Positions 47 through 6,531 of a DNA stretch of 6,577 nt are shown piece by piece. Every line of letters begins with the position of its first letter. Within the stretch, counting starts at the first letter, position 1. The notes beneath the pieces were generated by a model that saw nothing but the letters and a program-made list of their open reading frames with translations, searched no databases and had not been told where the DNA came from. The translations under genes and the position numbers were made by a program. The stretch comes from a virus: UHGV virus genome UHGV-1437364; one strand, written 5' to 3'.

Positions 47-362
47 CTAAAATGATTTGCTGAAAAAATGCACAATTCAGGGTCGGATTTTCCCGGATGT
101 TTAATTTATAAAAACGAAGCTGGTGGATGATCTGCGTGGTGATTTCCACCATTCAGAGCAGGGGCGGTCATCATGCCCATGCCATAACAAAAACCCCATA
201 TTCGTGGTTTTTCTGTGTTGTGGCTATTCTGCCGTTGCCGTGCTGGTGGATATTTCCGTTATGGGGATCACCATATCGGCATCATGCCCACCAGCCAGCG
301 CAATTTTGCGCTTTGCTTTAAGTTCAGCAAGTTACCGCGCCGGATTACGCCAATGGCTGTTT

Positions 363-540
363 CCGAAAGAATCAACGGGTTAGGCCTTAATGGGCTGCGT
401 GGTAATTATCAGCATCCAGAATATGACGGGTTATGTTTCCGACCTCCTCAATTTGAGGTTCCCGAAAATATCAACGGGTTAGGCTGGTTTCCCCGATGTT
501 CGCCGCTGGCGAATTTCGAAAATATCAACCAGTTACCGCC
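363..540. repeat. Three direct copies of a ~22-bp motif in a non-coding region
   Basis: Copies at 363-386 (CCGAAAGAATCAACGGGTTAGGCC), 462-485 (CCCGAAAATATCAACGGGTTAGGC) and 515-540 (TCGAAAATATCAACCAGTTACCGCC). The first two are exactly 100 bp apart. A 13-bp palindrome CCTCAATTTGAGG lies at 446-458. No convincing ORF covers the region. Confidence 0.6.
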
Positions 541-623
541 GCAACCGCTCCGGCTTCTTCCAGTGGTATGTAATTTTCTCCGTTTCCCGATACAGTGCCA
601 CGCGGCGATTGTAGGCCAGCATT

Positions 624-797
624 TCAAGAACGCATATCCACATCATTAAGCTGGATACCATCACGGCGCATCACCTCAGCAACAACACGCGCATAATTTT
701 CGGCTGTCACGCTGTCCGGCTGCGTGGCCTGTTCGTCAGTCTGCTGGCTGATTCCACCAGCACGGCGGATTAATCCCAGTATTTCGGCTTCTGTCAT
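624..797 (-). CDS. Hypothetical small acidic protein, 57 aa (below the ORF-track length cutoff)
   Basis: Hand translation of the minus strand gives ATG at 797..795 and TGA at 626..624: MTEAEILGLIRRAGGISQQTDEQATQPDSVTAENYARVVAEVMRRDGIQLNDVDMRS. Composition and codon choice look protein-like, but the ribosome-binding site is weak (GGGTG about 5-9 nt upstream). Confidence 0.3.
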   Translation of the reverse strand: MTEAEILGLIRRAGGISQQTDEQATQPDSVTAENYARVVAEVMRRDGIQLNDVDMRS

Positions 798-830
798 TGT
801 GCACCCATCGTTCTGATTGTCTGGTGTCGT

Positions 831-1050
831 CGGGTCCTTCCTGGAATTATGGACCCGTTACGGGGCGGCGACCTCGCGGTTTTTATCTGTTTATGAAAAT
901 TTTTCTGGAAAAAGCATGTCGGTACTTCTCGAACATAACTATTTGTTTTTAAATAGATACACAATAAAAAGAAACGACACGGTAATCATCTAAAATGGCG
1001 ATTTATGACGCTTTCATGTCGTTTCTCAGTTTTGTTCAATAATTGCGCGT
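831..1050 (+). other. Lambda-type cos site (cosQ-like, cosN, lambda-like cosB), plus orientation, with no TerS gene downstream
   Basis: cosN GGGCGGCGACCT at 863-874 is preceded by GGGTCCTTCCTGG...CCCGTTACG, resembling the lambda right end. The following 885-1050 resembles the lambda left end (TTTATGAAAATTTTTCTGG, CATAACT...TTTTTAAATA). R-site-like inverted motifs GAAACGAC (971-978) and GTCGTTTC (1018-1025) are present. Confidence 0.75.
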
Positions 1051-1053
1051 CTG

Positions 1054-4234: not shown

Positions 4235-4250
4235 TTCTGTCACTCGTCGC

Positions 4251-4673
4251 TTAAAACGGTATGTTATCCCCGTACGGATCATCATTCCCCGCCTGTTGTT
4301 TTGCCCTGTTCAGCGCGTCAGTAGCCTGGCCCTGTTGACCTTTTTTGCCGCCCAGTCGCGCCGTTCGCGCACTGATTACACTGTCTGCGATAACCTGCCA
4401 GCCCTGCCGCGTTTCTCCGTTCTGCCCAGTCCACTGGCTGATCTGCATGTTACCCGCCACGCTCAGGAGTTCACCCTTGCGGTGCCTTTCCAGTGCTTCG
4501 GCCTGTCTGCCAAATGCCAGGACGGATAACCACATCGTCGCCGTTCCGTCATCTGCCTGGCTGCACGGAAGGGGGACCGCCATACGCGCCAGCGTCATCG
4601 GTGTGCCCTTGCTGGTCTGTTTTACCTGCGGGTCGTCCACCAGCCGCCCGTAAGCGGCTATCTGTGCTGTCAT
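4251..4673 (-). CDS. ssb: Single-stranded DNA-binding protein (SSB), short form
   Basis: OB-fold pattern matches E. coli SSB: YGRLVDDPQV versus VGNLGQDPEV, WLSVLAFGRQAE...RKGE...WTGQNGETR versus WHRVVLFGKLAE...RKGS...WTDQSGQDR. It has a Gly/Gln-rich linker and an acidic C-terminal tip DDPYGDNIPF (E. coli DFDDDIPF). Confidence 0.8.
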   Translation of the reverse strand: MTAQIAAYGRLVDDPQVKQTSKGTPMTLARMAVPLPCSQADDGTATMWLSVLAFGRQAEALERHRKGELLSVAGNMQISQWTGQNGETRQGWQVIADSVISARTARLGGKKGQQGQATDALNRAKQQAGNDDPYGDNIPF

Positions 4674-4948
4674 GATTCCACCTCTCCGGTTTTAACGTTG
4701 ATGGTTGTTACCTGTTCCGCTTCGGCAATCTCCCGTTCTGTCAGCGTGGCAAAGTTTGCCGCTGCTGTGGTCATGAATGCGCTTATCAGGTCGGGATGTT
4801 CCTTCGCGTATCCTTCCCCTACGTGTCGGTCTATCGTTCTGATTGCCACCTTTAAAGCGTGCTCTGTCATGTCTAACGCGCGATATTTCGGTTCTGTTCT
4901 GTCTCTGCGTTTTTTGAGTGATTTATTAAATTTCCCTGAAGTGTGCAT
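4670..4948 (-). CDS. Hypothetical protein, 92 aa, translationally coupled to ssb
   Basis: Its stop overlaps the ssb start (ATGA). A GAGGGGG ribosome-binding site lies about 11 nt upstream of the ATG. The charged composition is protein-like, whereas the antisense ORF is Cys/Ser-rich. No family recognised. Confidence 0.55.
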   Translation of the reverse strand: MHTSGKFNKSLKKRRDRTEPKYRALDMTEHALKVAIRTIDRHVGEGYAKEHPDLISAFMTTAAANFATLTEREIAEAEQVTTINVKTGEVES

Positions 4949-4994
4949 ATTTATTTTTACCCCCTCGTTTAAAAAGTTTTGAGTTGTGCCTCCC

Positions 4995-5225
4995 CTTGTC
5001 TACCTATCTACCTTAGTGGCCCTCATGCCAGTAATGGCGCGGCTTTCAGCGGGGTAGAGTGCTTTTATCCACTATCTACCCCGTGTCTACCTCCCTGTCT
5101 GATTCAGGTAAAATCAGGTAGAGAGGGTAGATAGTGGGTAGACAGTAAAAAAAGGCTATCTACCTAACTTAATGCACTGAATTAAATGTATTTTTCTTTA
5201 CTCAGGTAGACAGGGTAGACAGCCA
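4995..5225. repeat. Iteron cluster, putative replication origin, immediately 3-prime of the primase-helicase gene
   Basis: At least 11 copies of the core GGTAGA/TCTACC, often as GGGTAGACAG or CTATCTACC, in both orientations. Examples: 4998-5012, 5053-5058, 5072-5080, 5084-5092, 5116-5146, 5157-5165, 5205-5222. They flank an AT-rich spacer at 5166-5203. Confidence 0.7.
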
Positions 5226-5235
5226 TTGCAACAAA

Positions 5236-6531
5236 TTATAAAAACGCGTCGCAATCGTCTGTTGTTATTGCGTTAGTCTGCGTTACTCCTTTAACTTTCC
5301 GCGTAATATATTCATGTCCGTAAACTTTCGCGGCTGGCTTCATAGCCTTGCCAAAGTCATTTACGTTTAGCGGTTTGCTCCTGCCTGCGTACGCCATAAA
5401 CGCCAGATAGACGCGGTAAAGGCTGTTTCTGGTCGTGTACTTCACTGAATCGCCACCGCCGCCCATCATCAGGCCGCGTGCTTCCTCCAGAAAATTCAGG
5501 AACTGGCAAAACTCAATAACCGGATCCGTCTGTTGCTTTATTGCCAGTGCTTCATCACCGTCACGCTGTTCAATGAGTAAAGCCCGTGCCTTTTCAGGGT
5601 CGGCAAAGTTCGCCAGCAAGCGGCGGATAATGACAGGGATTTCAGCCGCGATCTTTTCCGGTAGCTCCCTGTCTTTTTCTGCCTCGCTTACGATGTTATC
5701 GAACCGGAATATCACCCGACGACGTGCCACACCTCCGGCCCGTTCGGTGAATATCATCGGATTGTTATTGGTTGCCAGCACCACCGCCCTGATTACCGCC
5801 GTAAAACGCTTTTCATATTTCGGGTTAATTTCCACGGGGTCGCCGCCCGTGATTTTCTTGATGCCCGTTCCTTCGCCTGTATATTTCGGCTGGTCTGCCA
5901 GGACGATAAGACGACTCCCGACAACCTGCGCACGCCCACCAGCATCATCAAGCGATGTCATTTCAGCGCTTACCGTGTTTTGTTTCCCTGCCAGAAGGCT
6001 GGCTATGTGTGTGAATGTACTTTTACCGCTCCCGCCGTCTCCGGTGGCCTCAATAAACATCTGCCAGTCGTACCGGTTCGCCATAATCATGTACAGCGCG
6101 GCACATATACGCATCATCTTGCGCGGGTCTTTTCCGGCTGCGTGCTCAAGCCATTTATGAAAGTTTGGCGCGTTATCGCGGATGTTCTCCCCTGGTGCTG
6201 GTGGCGTGTACTCAATGCCGTTGTGCGTGGTGATCCAGTTCTCCGGCGTGTGCGGGGAAAATTCCCCCGTTTTCAGGTCAAGCGCACCATTGGCGAACGG
6301 CAGCAAATCGCCGGACGGCTCGCCCATTGGTTCGGCAATAACTTTTAACGCTTCCACGGCGTTATTGATTACGCGCTTGCTGAAAGTGGCCCTGTGCTCT
6401 GAATAGATCGCCACCATTTCGCGGCTAAGTTCCATTGTGCTGACCGGACACCATACCCCGCCGCGCCATACGTGAACGATTTCACTTTCAGGATGTACGC
6501 AAACGCCATCAAAGCGATCGGCAAGCAGCTG
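5236..6531 (-). CDS. Replication primase-helicase, P4-alpha / PICI Pri-Rep type (partial; 5-prime end lost at contig edge)
   Basis: Walker A motif EATGDGGSGKST and D5_N-like upstream region, as in the phage/plasmid primase P4-family C-terminal domain. The apparent N-terminus MYKRQ (6546..6532) is a translation of the adapter ATGTATAAGAGACAG, so genuine codons start at 6531. Confidence 0.85.
   Translation of the reverse strand, partial: QLLADRFDGVCVHPESEIVHVWRGGVWCPVSTMELSREMVAIYSEHRATFSKRVINNAVEALKVIAEPMGEPSGDLLPFANGALDLKTGEFSPHTPENWITTHNGIEYTPPAPGENIRDNAPNFHKWLEHAAGKDPRKMMRICAALYMIMANRYDWQMFIEATGDGGSGKSTFTHIASLLAGKQNTVSAEMTSLDDAGGRAQVVGSRLIVLADQPKYTGEGTGIKKITGGDPVEINPKYEKRFTAVIRAVVLATNNNPMIFTERAGGVARRRVIFRFDNIVSEAEKDRELPEKIAAEIPVIIRRLLANFADPEKARALLIEQRDGDEALAIKQQTDPVIEFCQFLNFLEEARGLMMGGGGDSVKYTTRNSLYRVYLAFMAYAGRSKPLNVNDFGKAMKPAAKVYGHEYITRKVKGVTQTNAITTDDCDAFL

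What the first reader, a model, noticed from the sequence alone, without database searches (positions are those of the whole stretch)
119..6204. Eight Chi octamers (GCTGGTGG) in about 6.5 kb
Plus-strand copies are at 119-126, 242-249, 3758-3765 and 6197-6204; minus-strand copies are at 288-295, 754-761, 2751-2758 and 4637-4644. A random sequence of this length would contain about 0.2. From memory the E. coli chromosome averages roughly one per 4.5-5 kb, and wild-type lambda has none. This density could protect linear or rolling-circle forms from RecBCD and promote RecA loading, which would suit an element lacking a Gam-like inhibitor.
Basis: partly seen in the sequence, partly recalled or inferred. 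Interest (0 to 1): 0.55.

Follow-up and report, generated by a model that had tools for sequence, protein, structure and literature searches.

The report
Chi-rich phage satellite (PICI) of E. coli
This piece of an E. coli phage satellite carries the RecBCD control sequence Chi about five times more densely than its host's chromosome, as do all its relatives, whereas lambda-like prophages of the kind that mobilise such satellites and the unrelated satellite P4 carry almost none, so the satellite probably relies on DNA sites, not a protein inhibitor, to tame the host's DNA-degrading enzyme.

Summary
Expected counts are 0.2 from dinucleotide shuffles and 1.4 at E. coli chromosomal density. Synonymous-codon shuffles give 1.2 coding copies against 6 observed (0 of 5000 reach 6). 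Chi is the single most frequent octamer in the window.

The window is 99.7% identical to the E. coli Nissle 1917 chromosome, plus Nextera adapters at both ends. It is the cos/capsid/replication half of an 11.3-kb integrase-bearing, EcCICFT073-type Gram-negative PICI.

The enrichment is family-wide:
- Nine diverged E. coli islands average 1 Chi per 0.93 kb, at 39 distinct positions.
- EcCICFT073 itself has 11 in 11.5 kb.
- Eighty IMG/VR relatives average 1 per 1.1 kb.
- Chromosomal flanks have 1 per 3.5 kb.
- Two Gam/Bet/Exo lambdoid prophages have 0 in 42.6 kb and 2 in 29.8 kb.
- P4-like satellites have 0 in about 32 kb.

No Gam or Rec module was detected in the island.

Best reading: selected, cis-acting RecBCD control sites that protect replicating satellite DNA and promote its multimerisation for cos packaging. 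This is the known "no Rec module, many Chi" strategy of some lambdoid phages, apparently not described for satellites. The function is inferred, not shown.

The parts
119..126 (+). Chi 1. Non-coding, 744 bp left of cosN1. Correctly oriented for RecBCD moving leftward from the cos1 cut.
   Evidence: Homologous Chi is present in 6 of 9 islands. L003 has the one-base variant GCTAGTGG.
242..249 (+). Chi 2. Non-coding, 621 bp left of cosN1, same orientation as Chi 1.
   Evidence: Conserved in 4 of 9 islands. In the IMG/VR relatives the bin -1000 to -500 from cosN1 holds 32 plus-strand and 2 minus-strand copies.
288..295 (-). Chi 3. Non-coding. Part of a recurring unit GGCATCATGCCCACCAGC...CGCAATTTTGCG next to a hairpin.
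   Evidence: (8 copies in 6 islands, two each in L008 and L009).
754..761 (-). Chi 4. In the small conserved ORF next to cos1, on the sense strand (codons GCT GGT GGA = A-G-G).
2751..2758 (-). Chi 5. In the gpE-like major capsid gene, on the sense strand (G-LV-A). It is the first Chi met by RecBCD moving rightward from cos2.
   Evidence: Conserved in 5 of 9 islands. In the IMG/VR loci all 42 Chi in its 500-bp bin are on the minus strand.
3758..3765 (+). Chi 6. Antisense in the 68-aa ORF upstream of the capsid gene.
   Evidence: Present in only 2 of 9 islands; others read TTTTGTGG at this position, so it is a recent gain or loss.
4637..4644 (-). Chi 7. In the SSB gene, on the sense strand (R-LV-D).
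   Evidence: Conserved in all 9 islands.
5936..5943 (-). Chi 8. In the primase gene, on the sense strand (A-G-G).
   Evidence: Conserved in 5 of 9 islands.
6197..6204 (+). Chi 9. Antisense in the primase gene (P-P-A).
   Evidence: Conserved in 4 of 9 islands.
863..874 (+). cosN1: GGGCGGCGACCT, identical to lambda cosN, in lambda-standard orientation. The flanking sequence resembles phage 21 and the CFT073 prophage.
   Evidence: (H27).
1730..1741 (-). cosN2: an inverted second cos, upstream of terS in the canonical cosN-cosB-Nu1 order.
   Evidence: EcCICFT073 has two functional cos sites (PMC6092414).
624..797 (-). Small conserved ORF (93 aa in strain Nissle; PHROG 1561, function unknown). Here it is truncated to 57 aa by a 17-bp deletion at window position 631.
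1054..1596 (-). Nu1-type small terminase subunit.
   Evidence: (PF07471, E = 2e-23).
1802..2215 (-). 137-aa protein resembling the C-terminal (scaffold) part of a head maturation protease.
   Evidence: phrog_1999; phrog_53, E = 2.7e-9.
2228..2563 (-). Lambda gpD-like head decoration protein.
2575..3630 (-). Lambda gpE-like major capsid protein.
   Evidence: (PF03864, E = 3e-52).
4251..4673 (-). Single-strand DNA-binding protein. It is the only recombination- or replication-accessory gene detected apart from the primase.
4670..4948 (-). 92-aa protein of unknown function, in the same operon as SSB. Helical model, no fold match.
5236..6531 (-). D5/P4-family primase-helicase. This is the 3' part; the gene runs off the window.

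Best explanation
The window is the packaging, capsid and replication half of an 11.3-kb EcCICFT073-type phage-inducible chromosomal island (PICI). Such islands are packaged through lambda-type cos sites. Its Chi octamers are a selected, cis-acting adaptation to the host RecBCD enzyme.

Proposed mechanism (inferred):
1. Satellite DNA sometimes has a free double-strand end while RecBCD is active. Examples are the tail of a rolling circle, a concatemer cut at cos, converging forks of theta replication, or newly injected DNA.
2. RecBCD then meets a correctly oriented Chi within at most about 3.5 kb in either direction. There are 6 to 7 Chi per orientation on the 11.3-kb circle.
3. At Chi the enzyme's nuclease is attenuated and RecA is loaded.
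4. This spares the DNA and drives recombination, rolling-circle replication and multimer formation. These give the concatemers that a lambda-type terminase needs.

The density is about five times the host's. A likely reason is that an 11-kb genome at host density would offer only about one usable Chi per pass.

What is shown: the enrichment, its specificity for the exact octamer, its family-wide distribution, and the absence of detectable Gam or Rec genes. What is inferred: the RecBCD-dependent benefit and the life-cycle stage at which it acts.
For: Enrichment and specificity:
- The window has 9 Chi against 0.2 (dinucleotide shuffles), 1.2 (coding copies, codon shuffles) and 1.4 (host density) expected.
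- Chi is the top octamer in the window, in all 9 E. coli islands and in EcCICFT073.
- Single-mismatch neighbours are not enriched.

Family-wide, including non-homologous modules:
- Nine islands hold 109 Chi in 100.8 kb, at 39 distinct homologous positions. They carry different capsid, replicase and integrase modules.
- Eighty IMG/VR relatives have a median of 0.90 per kb and a minimum of 0.42 per kb.
- Chi octamers are conserved in 40 of 55 alignable cases, against 55% for background octamers.

Contrasts in the same host species:
- Chromosomal flanks: 1 per 3.5 kb.
- Gam+Bet+Exo lambdoid prophages: 0 in 42.6 kb (CFT073) and 2 in 29.8 kb (the prophage that carries island L006).
- P4 and P4-like satellites: 0. 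To my knowledge these are packaged from monomeric circles.

Other support:
- No Gam or Rec module is detectable in the island.
- Chi clusters beside cos: 4 of 13 in the last 853 bp (P = 0.013), and 11 of 39 distinct loci in 11% of the length (P = 0.003). The plus-strand copies left of cos1 and the minus-strand copy right of cos2 face the free ends.

Precedent:
- LLS-class lambdoid phages and P1 (PMC12315714).
- Bobay et al. 2013 (PMC3784561).
- Chi induces RecBCD-dependent rolling-circle replication and multimers on bidirectionally replicating plasmids (PMC10025158).
- EcCICFT073 is packaged as roughly 45-kb concatemers (PMC6092414; PMC10111431).
Against: - No experiment links Chi or RecBCD to transfer of any PICI. 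Neither PICI paper read mentions RecBCD.
- Lambda, a demonstrated helper of EcCICFT073, encodes Gam. So do the lambdoid prophages examined here that sit next to or around these islands. Gam would make Chi irrelevant during helper-driven replication. Selection would then have to come from Gam-less helpers or from helper-free stages.
- Orientation is nearly balanced (4:5 in the window, 44:65 in nine islands, 290:390 in IMG/VR). LLS has a 20:3 bias. Loci with one cos or two show the same ratio.
- The activity-enhancing purine-rich 3' context is not enriched (1.88 of 4).
- The islands are related, so the number of independent events is 39 positions or fewer, not 109.
- An unrecognised RecBCD inhibitor among the small unknown proteins cannot be excluded.
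Confidence: 0.55

Rival explanations
1. The Chi sites serve as a 'self' label. They stop RecBCD degradation early, so the satellite yields few degradation fragments. It therefore escapes CRISPR spacer acquisition, or other RecBCD-fed immunity, in new hosts. Concatemer formation is not the main purpose.
For: RecBCD degradation products feed CRISPR adaptation, and Chi limits this (Levy et al. 2015, as cited in PMC8791490). Balanced orientation and an even spread around the circle suit protection from breaks anywhere. One relative (L003) sits next to a type I-F CRISPR-Cas locus.
Against: - P4-like satellites face the same immunity in the same hosts and have zero Chi.
- Gam+ lambdoid prophages also lack Chi.
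- The clustering next to cos is not predicted.
- To my knowledge E. coli CRISPR-Cas is largely silent under laboratory conditions.
Confidence: 0.12
2. The Chi sites are selected because they stimulate RecBCD-RecA homologous recombination. The partners would be related islands already resident in the cell, or the chromosome. This would rescue incomplete or transduced fragments without integrase and drive the module shuffling seen in this family.
For: The family is highly mosaic and widespread. Of 5426 E. coli genomes, 2239 have matches, with a median of 2 and up to 11 places per genome. Capsid, terminase, replicase and integrase modules are swapped among islands. Chi is by definition a recombination hotspot.
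Against: - P4-like elements are also mosaic and common yet lack Chi.
- A benefit through evolvability is a weak selective force compared with a direct effect on yield.
- This does not explain the clustering at cos.
- It is compatible with the main explanation rather than exclusive of it.
Confidence: 0.15
3. The enrichment is passive. It would be a by-product of amino-acid and codon usage, of base composition, or of long residence in the chromosome (amelioration). No selection on Chi itself would be involved.
For: Chi contains the common codons CTG and GTG. Two of the six coding copies encode Leu-Val. Chi is also over-represented in the E. coli chromosome (PMC3784561).
Against: - Codon shuffles give 1.2 against 6 observed.
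- Three copies are non-coding, and the coding copies use three registers and both strands.
- The density is 4 to 5 times that of the chromosome, so amelioration cannot produce it.
- Single-mismatch neighbours are not enriched.
- Lambdoid prophages and P4-like elements resident in the same species have about zero.
Confidence: 0.04
4. The octamer is the core of a binding site for a satellite or helper protein unrelated to RecBCD, for example a packaging or regulatory factor.
For: Three copies cluster in a non-coding region next to cos that also holds three 19-nt direct repeats.
Against: - The flanking sequences of the nine copies share nothing beyond the octamer.
- Most copies lie inside coding regions all around the island.
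- The octamer is enriched in islands with different terminase, capsid and replicase modules.
- According to the specialists, the only known activity of this octamer in E. coli is with RecBCD (PMC12315714).
Confidence: 0.03

Closest known systems
[quoted passage not shown] 2025, PMC12315714; Bobay et al. 2013, PMC3784561)
   Same: [quoted passage not shown]
   Different: - This is an 11-kb satellite, not a 40-50-kb phage.
- The density is about twice as high (about 1 per 0.9 kb, against 1 per 1.86 kb in LLS and about 0.2 per kb in Bobay's Rec- set).
- Orientation is nearly balanced rather than 20:3.
- It has two inverted cos sites.
- It depends on helper phages, and the lambdoid prophages examined here are of the opposite (Gam+, Chi-less) class.
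- RecBCD dependence has been shown for LLS but not here.
EcCICFT073, the model Gram-negative PICI (Fillol-Salom et al. 2018, PMC6092414)
   Same: Same gene order: int, AlpA-type regulator, small ORFs, DUF4222, primase, SSB, gpE-like capsid, gpD-like decoration protein, scaffold-like protein, then the conserved 93-aa ORF. Both are about 11.5 kb and have two inverted cosN sites. I find 11 Chi in its 11.5 kb.
   Different: The window's island carries a Nu1-type terS where EcCICFT073 has an unrelated 144-aa gene. It has a different integrase and integrates next to tRNA-Pro rather than between phoQ and roxA. Chi content was not discussed in that paper.
Phage P1 (50 Chi in 94.8 kb, RecBCD-dependent growth; cited in PMC12315714)
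   Same: Both are mobile elements with Chi as the top octamer. P1 uses host RecBCD/RecA instead of inhibiting it.
   Different: P1 uses headful packaging and needs recombination to circularise through terminal redundancy. The PICI has about twice the density.
Satellite phage P4 and P4-like elements
   Same: Same host, the same size (11.6 kb), similar GC content, a P4/D5-family primase, an Icd-like gene, integrase-mediated integration, and cos ends.
   Different: P4-like elements have zero Chi in 11.6 kb, 11.5 kb and about 9.3 kb of element DNA. They have sid/psu/delta instead of capsid and terS genes. To my knowledge P2/P4 terminase packages monomeric circles. Not a member (see membership test).
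Chi-containing plasmids (PMC10025158; also Dabert et al. 1992 and Kuzminov et al. 1994, cited from my own knowledge)
   Same: Chi in cis converts RecBCD from degrading to sparing and amplifying the DNA. On bidirectionally replicating plasmids this yields rolling circles and multimers.
   Different: Those are engineered constructs in which multimerisation is harmful. Here the multimers would be the packaging substrate and therefore beneficial.

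Membership tests
Chi (crossover hotspot instigator) site of enteric bacteria | Exact octamer 5'-GCTGGTGG-3'. | tested here: met
   Nine exact copies.
Chi (crossover hotspot instigator) site of enteric bacteria | Resides in a host whose RecBCD recognises this octamer. | tested here: met
   99.7% identity to E. coli Nissle 1917 and ATCC 25922 chromosomes.
Chi (crossover hotspot instigator) site of enteric bacteria | RecBCD-dependent nicking or hotspot activity when approached from the 3' side. | not testable with these tools
   Needs genetics or biochemistry.
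Chi (crossover hotspot instigator) site of enteric bacteria | Activity-enhancing purines at positions +4 to +7 on the 3' flank. This is a modulator rather than a requirement (PMC5041463). | tested here: not met
   Mean 1.88 purines of 4 over 74 distinct contexts. Host-flank Chi have 2.12.
Gram-negative PICI (EcCICFT073 type) | Tyrosine integrase at one end, with flanking direct repeats. | tested here: met
   Integrase at L001 21935-23176. A 26-nt direct repeat, 11,257 bp apart, bounds the island.
Gram-negative PICI (EcCICFT073 type) | AlpA-type regulator downstream of int. | tested here: inconclusive
   A 68-aa helix-turn-helix protein. Pfam AlpA E = 0.0035, below the gathering score; PHROG 'excisionase and transcriptional regulator' E = 5.5e-7.
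Gram-negative PICI (EcCICFT073 type) | Own primase/replicase module, size about 10-15 kb, no tail or lysis genes. | tested here: met
   D5_N/DUF5906/Pox_D5 primase. Island of 11.3 kb. The only structural genes are capsid, decoration, scaffold-like and terS.
Gram-negative PICI (EcCICFT073 type) | Helper-type cos site(s). | tested here: met
   Two inverted cosN sites identical to lambda's. The flank of cos1 resembles phage 21 and the CFT073 lambdoid prophage.
Gram-negative PICI (EcCICFT073 type) | Synteny with the model element. | tested here: met
   Same gene order as EcCICFT073, apart from terS and the integrase and integration site.
Gram-negative PICI (EcCICFT073 type) | Induction, replication and high-frequency transfer by a helper phage. 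| not testable with these tools
   The window ends in sequencing adapters, and close relatives are in IMG/VR. Neither shows that this DNA was packaged.
Chi-rich, Rec-module-less lambdoid class (LLS class) | No recombination module or anti-RecBCD gene. | tested here: met
   No Pfam or PHROG hit to Gam, GamL, Abc2, MuGam, Bet, Exo, RecT or Erf; only an SSB. Caveat: about nine small proteins have no known function.
Chi-rich, Rec-module-less lambdoid class (LLS class) | Chi density above that of the host, with Chi as the top octamer. | tested here: met
Chi-rich, Rec-module-less lambdoid class (LLS class) | Strong bias to the one orientation that is active from the right cos end. | tested here: not met
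   4:5 in the window, 44:65 in nine islands, 290:390 in IMG/VR loci.
Chi-rich, Rec-module-less lambdoid class (LLS class) | Concentration of Chi toward the right (cosQ-side) end. | tested here: met
   4 of 13 in the last 853 bp before cosN1 (P = 0.013). 11 of 39 distinct loci in 11% of the length (P = 0.003).
Chi-rich, Rec-module-less lambdoid class (LLS class) | An autonomous lambdoid phage whose growth is enhanced by RecBCD. | tested here: not met
   It is a satellite without portal, TerL, tail or lysis genes. RecBCD dependence is not testable here. It therefore works like this class but is not a member.
P4-like satellites | sid/psu/delta capsid-size and transactivation genes, and an alpha primase of the P4 clade. 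| tested here: not met
   None of these are annotated in the island. P4 does not appear among the window's phage hits. Only the primase superfamily is shared.
Capsid-forming PICIs (cf-PICI) | A complete set of capsid and packaging genes: portal, protease, TerL and head-tail connectors, in addition to MCP and TerS (my recollection of the cf-PICI description; that paper was listed but not read). | tested here: not met
   Only MCP, decoration, scaffold-like and TerS genes are present.

The most novel reading that the evidence does not exclude
Lambda-cos PICIs carry the densest Chi load I found or saw reported for any element: about 1 per kb. That is 5 times the host's density and 2 times that of LLS or P1. 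In this reading the Chi sites act as a DNA-encoded substitute for Gam and Red. They switch the cell's few RecBCD molecules to the Chi-modified, recD-like state. This converts theta replication into rolling-circle and multimeric DNA, which is needed to fill a head cos-to-cos with several satellite copies. The effect would not depend on whether the helper brings Gam. The kind of packaging substrate would then predict Chi content across satellite families: concatemers for lambda-type cos, against monomeric circles for P2/P4. A satellite and its helper could also follow opposite RecBCD strategies inside one cell.
Probability: 0.35. Interest if true: 0.65.

Novelty: new member of a known kind. Interest (0 to 1): 0.5.

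Why it matters
If Chi is functional here, it is a cis-acting determinant of PICI spread that has not been considered. PICIs move virulence, defence and other genes among enterobacteria, including the probiotic strain Nissle 1917 and uropathogenic CFT073.

It would extend the 'inhibit RecBCD or exploit it through Chi' dichotomy from phages to their satellites. A parasite and the phage it exploits could then sit on opposite sides of that dichotomy.

It also gives a simple sequence marker. Chi was the top octamer in every full-length PICI of this family examined, and Chi was absent from the three P4-like elements examined. The marker may report the replication and packaging mode of an element.

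Experiments are straightforward: Chi-null synonymous variants, recB/recC/recD hosts, and gam+ or gam- helpers.

Tried and rejected
- Passive explanation from composition or codon usage. Rejected by codon shuffles, octamer ranking and the mismatch-neighbour control.
- Amelioration to the host. Rejected because the density is 4 to 5 times that of the chromosome, and resident Gam+ prophages have about zero.
- One repeated Chi-bearing unit as the source. Rejected for the window, because the flanks differ. One short Chi-bearing unit does recur in the att-to-cos region of relatives.
- Two inverted cos sites as the reason for balanced Chi orientation. Not supported: loci with one detectable cos have the same 43% plus-strand fraction as loci with two. 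Many of the 'single-cos' loci are truncated contigs of close relatives, so this test is weak.
- Chromosome-like switch of Chi orientation at the presumed ori downstream of pri. By inspection of the island's Chi positions, 7 of 13 fit, which is no signal.
- Preferred purine-rich 3' context of active Chi. No enrichment.
- Hidden Gam-like fold in the 92-aa protein next to SSB. The single-sequence AlphaFold model had pLDDT 68.6 and gave no Foldseek hit in the PDB, so the result is inconclusive.
- Rfam and the promoter/terminator scan of the window. Nothing relevant.
- The search for related loci with the capsid protein in genome contigs found nothing. IMG/VR gave 80 close relatives.
- Literature searches for Chi or RecBCD together with PICI or satellites. 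These returned only a general review and no study of the question.

Full report
OBSERVATION

An exact search finds nine GCTGGTGG octamers, not eight. Plus-strand copies are at 119, 242, 3758 and 6197. Minus-strand copies are at 288, 754, 2751, 4637 and 5936.

The count is well above every null I tried:
- Dinucleotide-preserving shuffles give a mean of 0.20 and at most 2.
Amino-acid sequence and codon usage are preserved. This gives 1.21 +/- 0.89 coding Chi, with a maximum of 5 in 5000 trials. Six are observed.
- At the E. coli K-12 density of 1 per 4.6 kb (PMC12315714) the window should hold 1.4, so P(>=9) = 1.7e-5.
- Chi is the most frequent of all octamers in the window (9; the runner-up has 6). 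In the whole island the 24 one-mismatch neighbours of Chi together occur only as often as Chi alone.

Three copies are non-coding. The six coding copies use three reading-frame registers, four sense and two antisense. The flanks of the nine copies are unrelated. The signal is therefore on the exact octamer at the DNA level.

WHAT THE WINDOW IS

Positions 47-6532 are 99.7% identical to the chromosomes of E. coli Nissle 1917, ATCC 25922 and relatives. The only differences from Nissle are a 17-bp deletion and a 1-bp deletion. Positions 1-46 and about 6532-6577 are inverted Nextera adapter sequences.

In Nissle the segment is the right half of an 11.3-kb island. A 26-nt direct repeat bounds the island, and a tyrosine integrase lies next to tRNA-Pro. 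Within the window every gene is on the minus strand:
- a D5/P4-family primase
- a 92-aa protein of unknown function
- an SSB
- a 68-aa protein of unknown function
- a lambda gpE-like capsid protein
- a gpD-like decoration protein
- a scaffold-like protein
- a Nu1-type small terminase
- a conserved small ORF

There are two cosN sequences identical to lambda's (GGGCGGCGACCT), in inverted orientation on either side of terS. They lie at 863-874 (plus) and 1730-1741 (minus).

Gene order, size and the double cos match EcCICFT073, the model Gram-negative PICI. I located EcCICFT073 between roxA and phoQ in strain CFT073. Its two cos sites are both functional, and it is packaged by lambda, phi80 or a resident prophage as roughly 45-kb concatemers (PMC6092414; PMC10111431). 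The window's island differs in carrying a terS and a different integrase. It is not a P4-like element or a capsid-forming PICI (see the membership table).

THE ENRICHMENT IS A PROPERTY OF THE FAMILY

The whole Nissle island has 13 Chi, 6 on the plus strand and 7 on the minus strand.

I compared it with eight diverged E. coli relatives. Between them they carry a different capsid module (a ClpP-MCP fusion), a different replicase (RepA helicase), different integrases and five further integration sites. Each of the nine islands has 10 to 15 Chi. Together they hold 109 in 100.8 kb, or 1 per 925 bp. Their chromosomal flanks hold 33 in 115 kb. Chi is the top octamer in every one of the nine.

The 109 copies fall at 39 distinct homologous positions, so many arose independently in non-homologous modules. 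Where positions are alignable, Chi is kept in 40 of 55 cases, against 55% for background octamers. There are also clear one-base gains and losses.

EcCICFT073 has 11 Chi in 11.5 kb, again the top octamer. Eighty IMG/VR contigs with a capsid protein at least 93% identical average 1 per 1.12 kb. Their median is 0.90 per kb and their minimum 0.42 per kb, still twice the host density.

CONTRASTS

- A lambdoid prophage 8 kb from EcCICFT073 in strain CFT073 encodes Gam, Bet and Exo. Its cos resembles the window's cos1. It has no Chi in 42.6 kb.
- One relative (L006) is inserted in the portal gene of a Gam+Bet+Exo lambdoid prophage. That prophage has 2 Chi in 29.8 kb, while the embedded satellite has 10 in 10.8 kb.
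- P4 has the same host and the same size as this island, and a primase of the same superfamily. P4 has none in 11.6 kb. Two P4-like chromosomal elements also have none, in 11.5 kb and about 9.3 kb of element DNA.

NO OWN RecBCD COUNTERMEASURE DETECTED

Pfam and PHROGs searches of all 20 annotated island proteins find no Gam, GamL, Abc2, MuGam, Bet, Exo, RecT or Erf. Only the SSB is relevant.

About nine small proteins have no known function. I modelled one of them, the 92-aa protein next to SSB. The model was of only moderate confidence and matched nothing in the PDB. A novel inhibitor therefore cannot be excluded.

ANATOMY RELATIVE TO cos

With cos1 in lambda-standard orientation, window positions 47-862 form the right end of the packaged chromosome. 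Four of the island's 13 Chi lie in these last 853 bp (P = 0.013). Across the family, 11 of 39 distinct Chi positions lie in the att-to-terminase region, which is 11% of the length (P = 0.003).

In 51 IMG/VR relatives aligned on cosN1:
- The bin -1000 to -500 holds 32 plus-strand copies and 2 minus-strand copies. Plus is the orientation that RecBCD recognises when it enters the free end left of cos1.
- The segment from cos1 to about +1500 holds terS, cos2 and the scaffold-like gene. It has almost no Chi.
- The next bin, which contains the capsid-gene site, holds 42 Chi, all on the minus strand. Minus is the orientation active for RecBCD leaving cos2 rightward.

Beyond these regions the orientations are mixed. 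The totals are nearly balanced: 4:5 in the window, 44:65 in the nine islands and 290:390 in IMG/VR, with a slight excess on the coding strand.

On the circular island no orientation has a gap longer than 3.5 kb.

I tested whether having two cos sites explains the balance. Loci with one detectable cos show the same ratio, so the idea remains unsupported.

MECHANISM (INFERRED)

[quoted passage not shown] These phages lack a Rec module and a RecBCD inhibitor. Chi is their top octamer, concentrated near the right cos end, and they grow better with RecBCD (PMC12315714). Bobay et al. 2013 described the same dichotomy earlier (PMC3784561).

A lambda-type terminase needs concatemers or multimers. In lambda red gam mutants these depend on Chi-stimulated RecBCD/RecA recombination. 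On bidirectionally replicating plasmids, Chi induces RecBCD-dependent rolling-circle replication and multimers, mimicking a recD mutant (PMC10025158).

I therefore propose that the satellite's Chi sites switch RecBCD from degradation to RecA loading within a few kb of any free end. This would protect replicating DNA and promote the multimers that are packaged.

The per-encounter recognition probability of Chi is about 0.3 to 0.4 (established knowledge, not tested here). With that value, 6 to 7 sites per orientation give about 0.9 or better probability of activation within one genome length. Host density would give 0.35 to 0.46. That would explain why a small genome needs a high density.

To my knowledge P4 is packaged from monomeric circles. 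Its lack of Chi fits the idea that concatemer-dependent packaging is what selects for Chi. Merely lacking Gam, or entering cells as linear DNA, would not be enough.

WEAKNESSES

- No experiment connects RecBCD or Chi with any PICI.
- Lambda, a demonstrated helper of EcCICFT073, encodes Gam, and so do the lambdoid prophages examined here. Any benefit must then arise with Gam-less helpers, before Gam acts, or in helper-free stages such as establishment in a new cell.
- Orientation is not biased as it is in LLS.
- The activity-enhancing 3' context described by Taylor et al. (PMC5041463) is not enriched.
- The islands are related, so the independent evidence is tens of positions, not hundreds.

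RIVALS

- A 'self label' that limits RecBCD-fed CRISPR adaptation.
- Promotion of recombination with resident islands.
- Passive composition or amelioration, largely refuted.
- An unrelated protein-binding motif.

NOVELTY

Chi enrichment in Rec-less phages is established. Full-text searches found no paper that connects Chi or RecBCD with PICIs or other satellites. The two PICI papers I read do not mention RecBCD.

I rate this a new member of a known kind. It has several distinctive features:
- the highest density among the elements compared here
- balanced orientation
- a satellite whose RecBCD strategy is opposite to that of the Gam+ lambdoid prophages found beside or around it
- a sharp contrast between PICIs and P4

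Interest is moderate. The finding is real, general across the family and easy to test, but it extends an existing principle rather than overturning one.

Noticed in passing
window 1-46 and about 6532-6577: Both ends of the window are the same Nextera transposase adapter (AGATCTAGTACG + GTCTCGTGGGCTCGGAGATGTGTATAAGAGACAG) in inverted orientation. These ends are library artefacts, not biology. They also explain the spurious hits to Staphylococcus, Streptococcus and other records.
   Followed up: yes
window 863-874 (+) and 1730-1741 (-): Two lambda-identical cosN sequences sit within an inverted repeat of about 50 nt that flanks the terS gene. The flank of cos1 resembles phage 21 and the CFT073 prophage. 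The flank of cos2 resembles lambda and lies in the canonical cosN-cosB-Nu1 order. A double functional cos is already published for EcCICFT073. Forty-eight of 80 IMG/VR relatives have both.
   Followed up: partly
window 47-52; L001 11981-12006 and 23238-23263: The genomic part of the window starts inside the 26-nt direct repeat (CCGTATAAC[C/T]AAACGTATAACTAAAA) that bounds the island. The contig therefore breaks at the attachment site. This is what one would expect if both excised and integrated forms, or several related islands, were in the sample.
   Followed up: partly
window 631 (L001 12585-12601): A 17-bp deletion relative to Nissle truncates the conserved 93-aa ORF next to cos (PHROG 1561, function unknown, present in all nine islands) to 57 aa. 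A 1-bp deletion at window position 4191 is the only other difference.
   Followed up: partly
window 364-382, 463-481, 517-535: Three direct copies of CGAAA(A/G)(T/A)ATCAAC(G/C)(G/A)GTTA lie in the non-coding stretch between the attachment site and cos1. The spacing is 99 and 54 bp. They are conserved in L003 and partly in L006. They may be protein-binding sites of unknown function.
   Followed up: no
L006 8719-19563 (NZ_CP028192.1); L011: A relative of the island is inserted inside the portal gene of a lambdoid Gam+Bet+Exo prophage. It is therefore a 'helper-embedded' PICI of the kind described in PMC10111431.
   Followed up: partly
window 279-312; L008 9174 and 9469; L009 9174 and 9469; L010 7752: A short unit recurs, sometimes twice per island, in the att-to-cos region: GGCATCATGCCCACCAGC followed by a CGCAATTTTGCG hairpin. 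One Chi thus spreads as part of a small repeated module.
   Followed up: partly
window 4049-4217: An intergenic segment upstream of SSB is 87-90% identical to unannotated segments of Stx-converting phages and VT1-Sakai. It overlaps a 31-nt terminator-like repeat also found at L001 13736. No Rfam family matches.
   Followed up: no
L015-L094, bins 0 to +1500 from cosN1 (window about 863-2360): In 51 IMG/VR relatives the segment holding terS, cos2 and the scaffold-like gene is almost free of Chi (4 in 76 kb). The rest of the islands has about 1.2 per kb. More diverged islands (L006, L008) do have Chi there.
   Followed up: partly
L012 (P4), L008, L009: The most frequent octamers in P4 (GGTGAACA/CTGTTCAC; P4's annotated 'ori type 1' repeats are 8 nt long) are also the second most frequent in islands L008 and L009. 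This suggests that these two PICIs carry a P4-type iteron origin.
   Followed up: no
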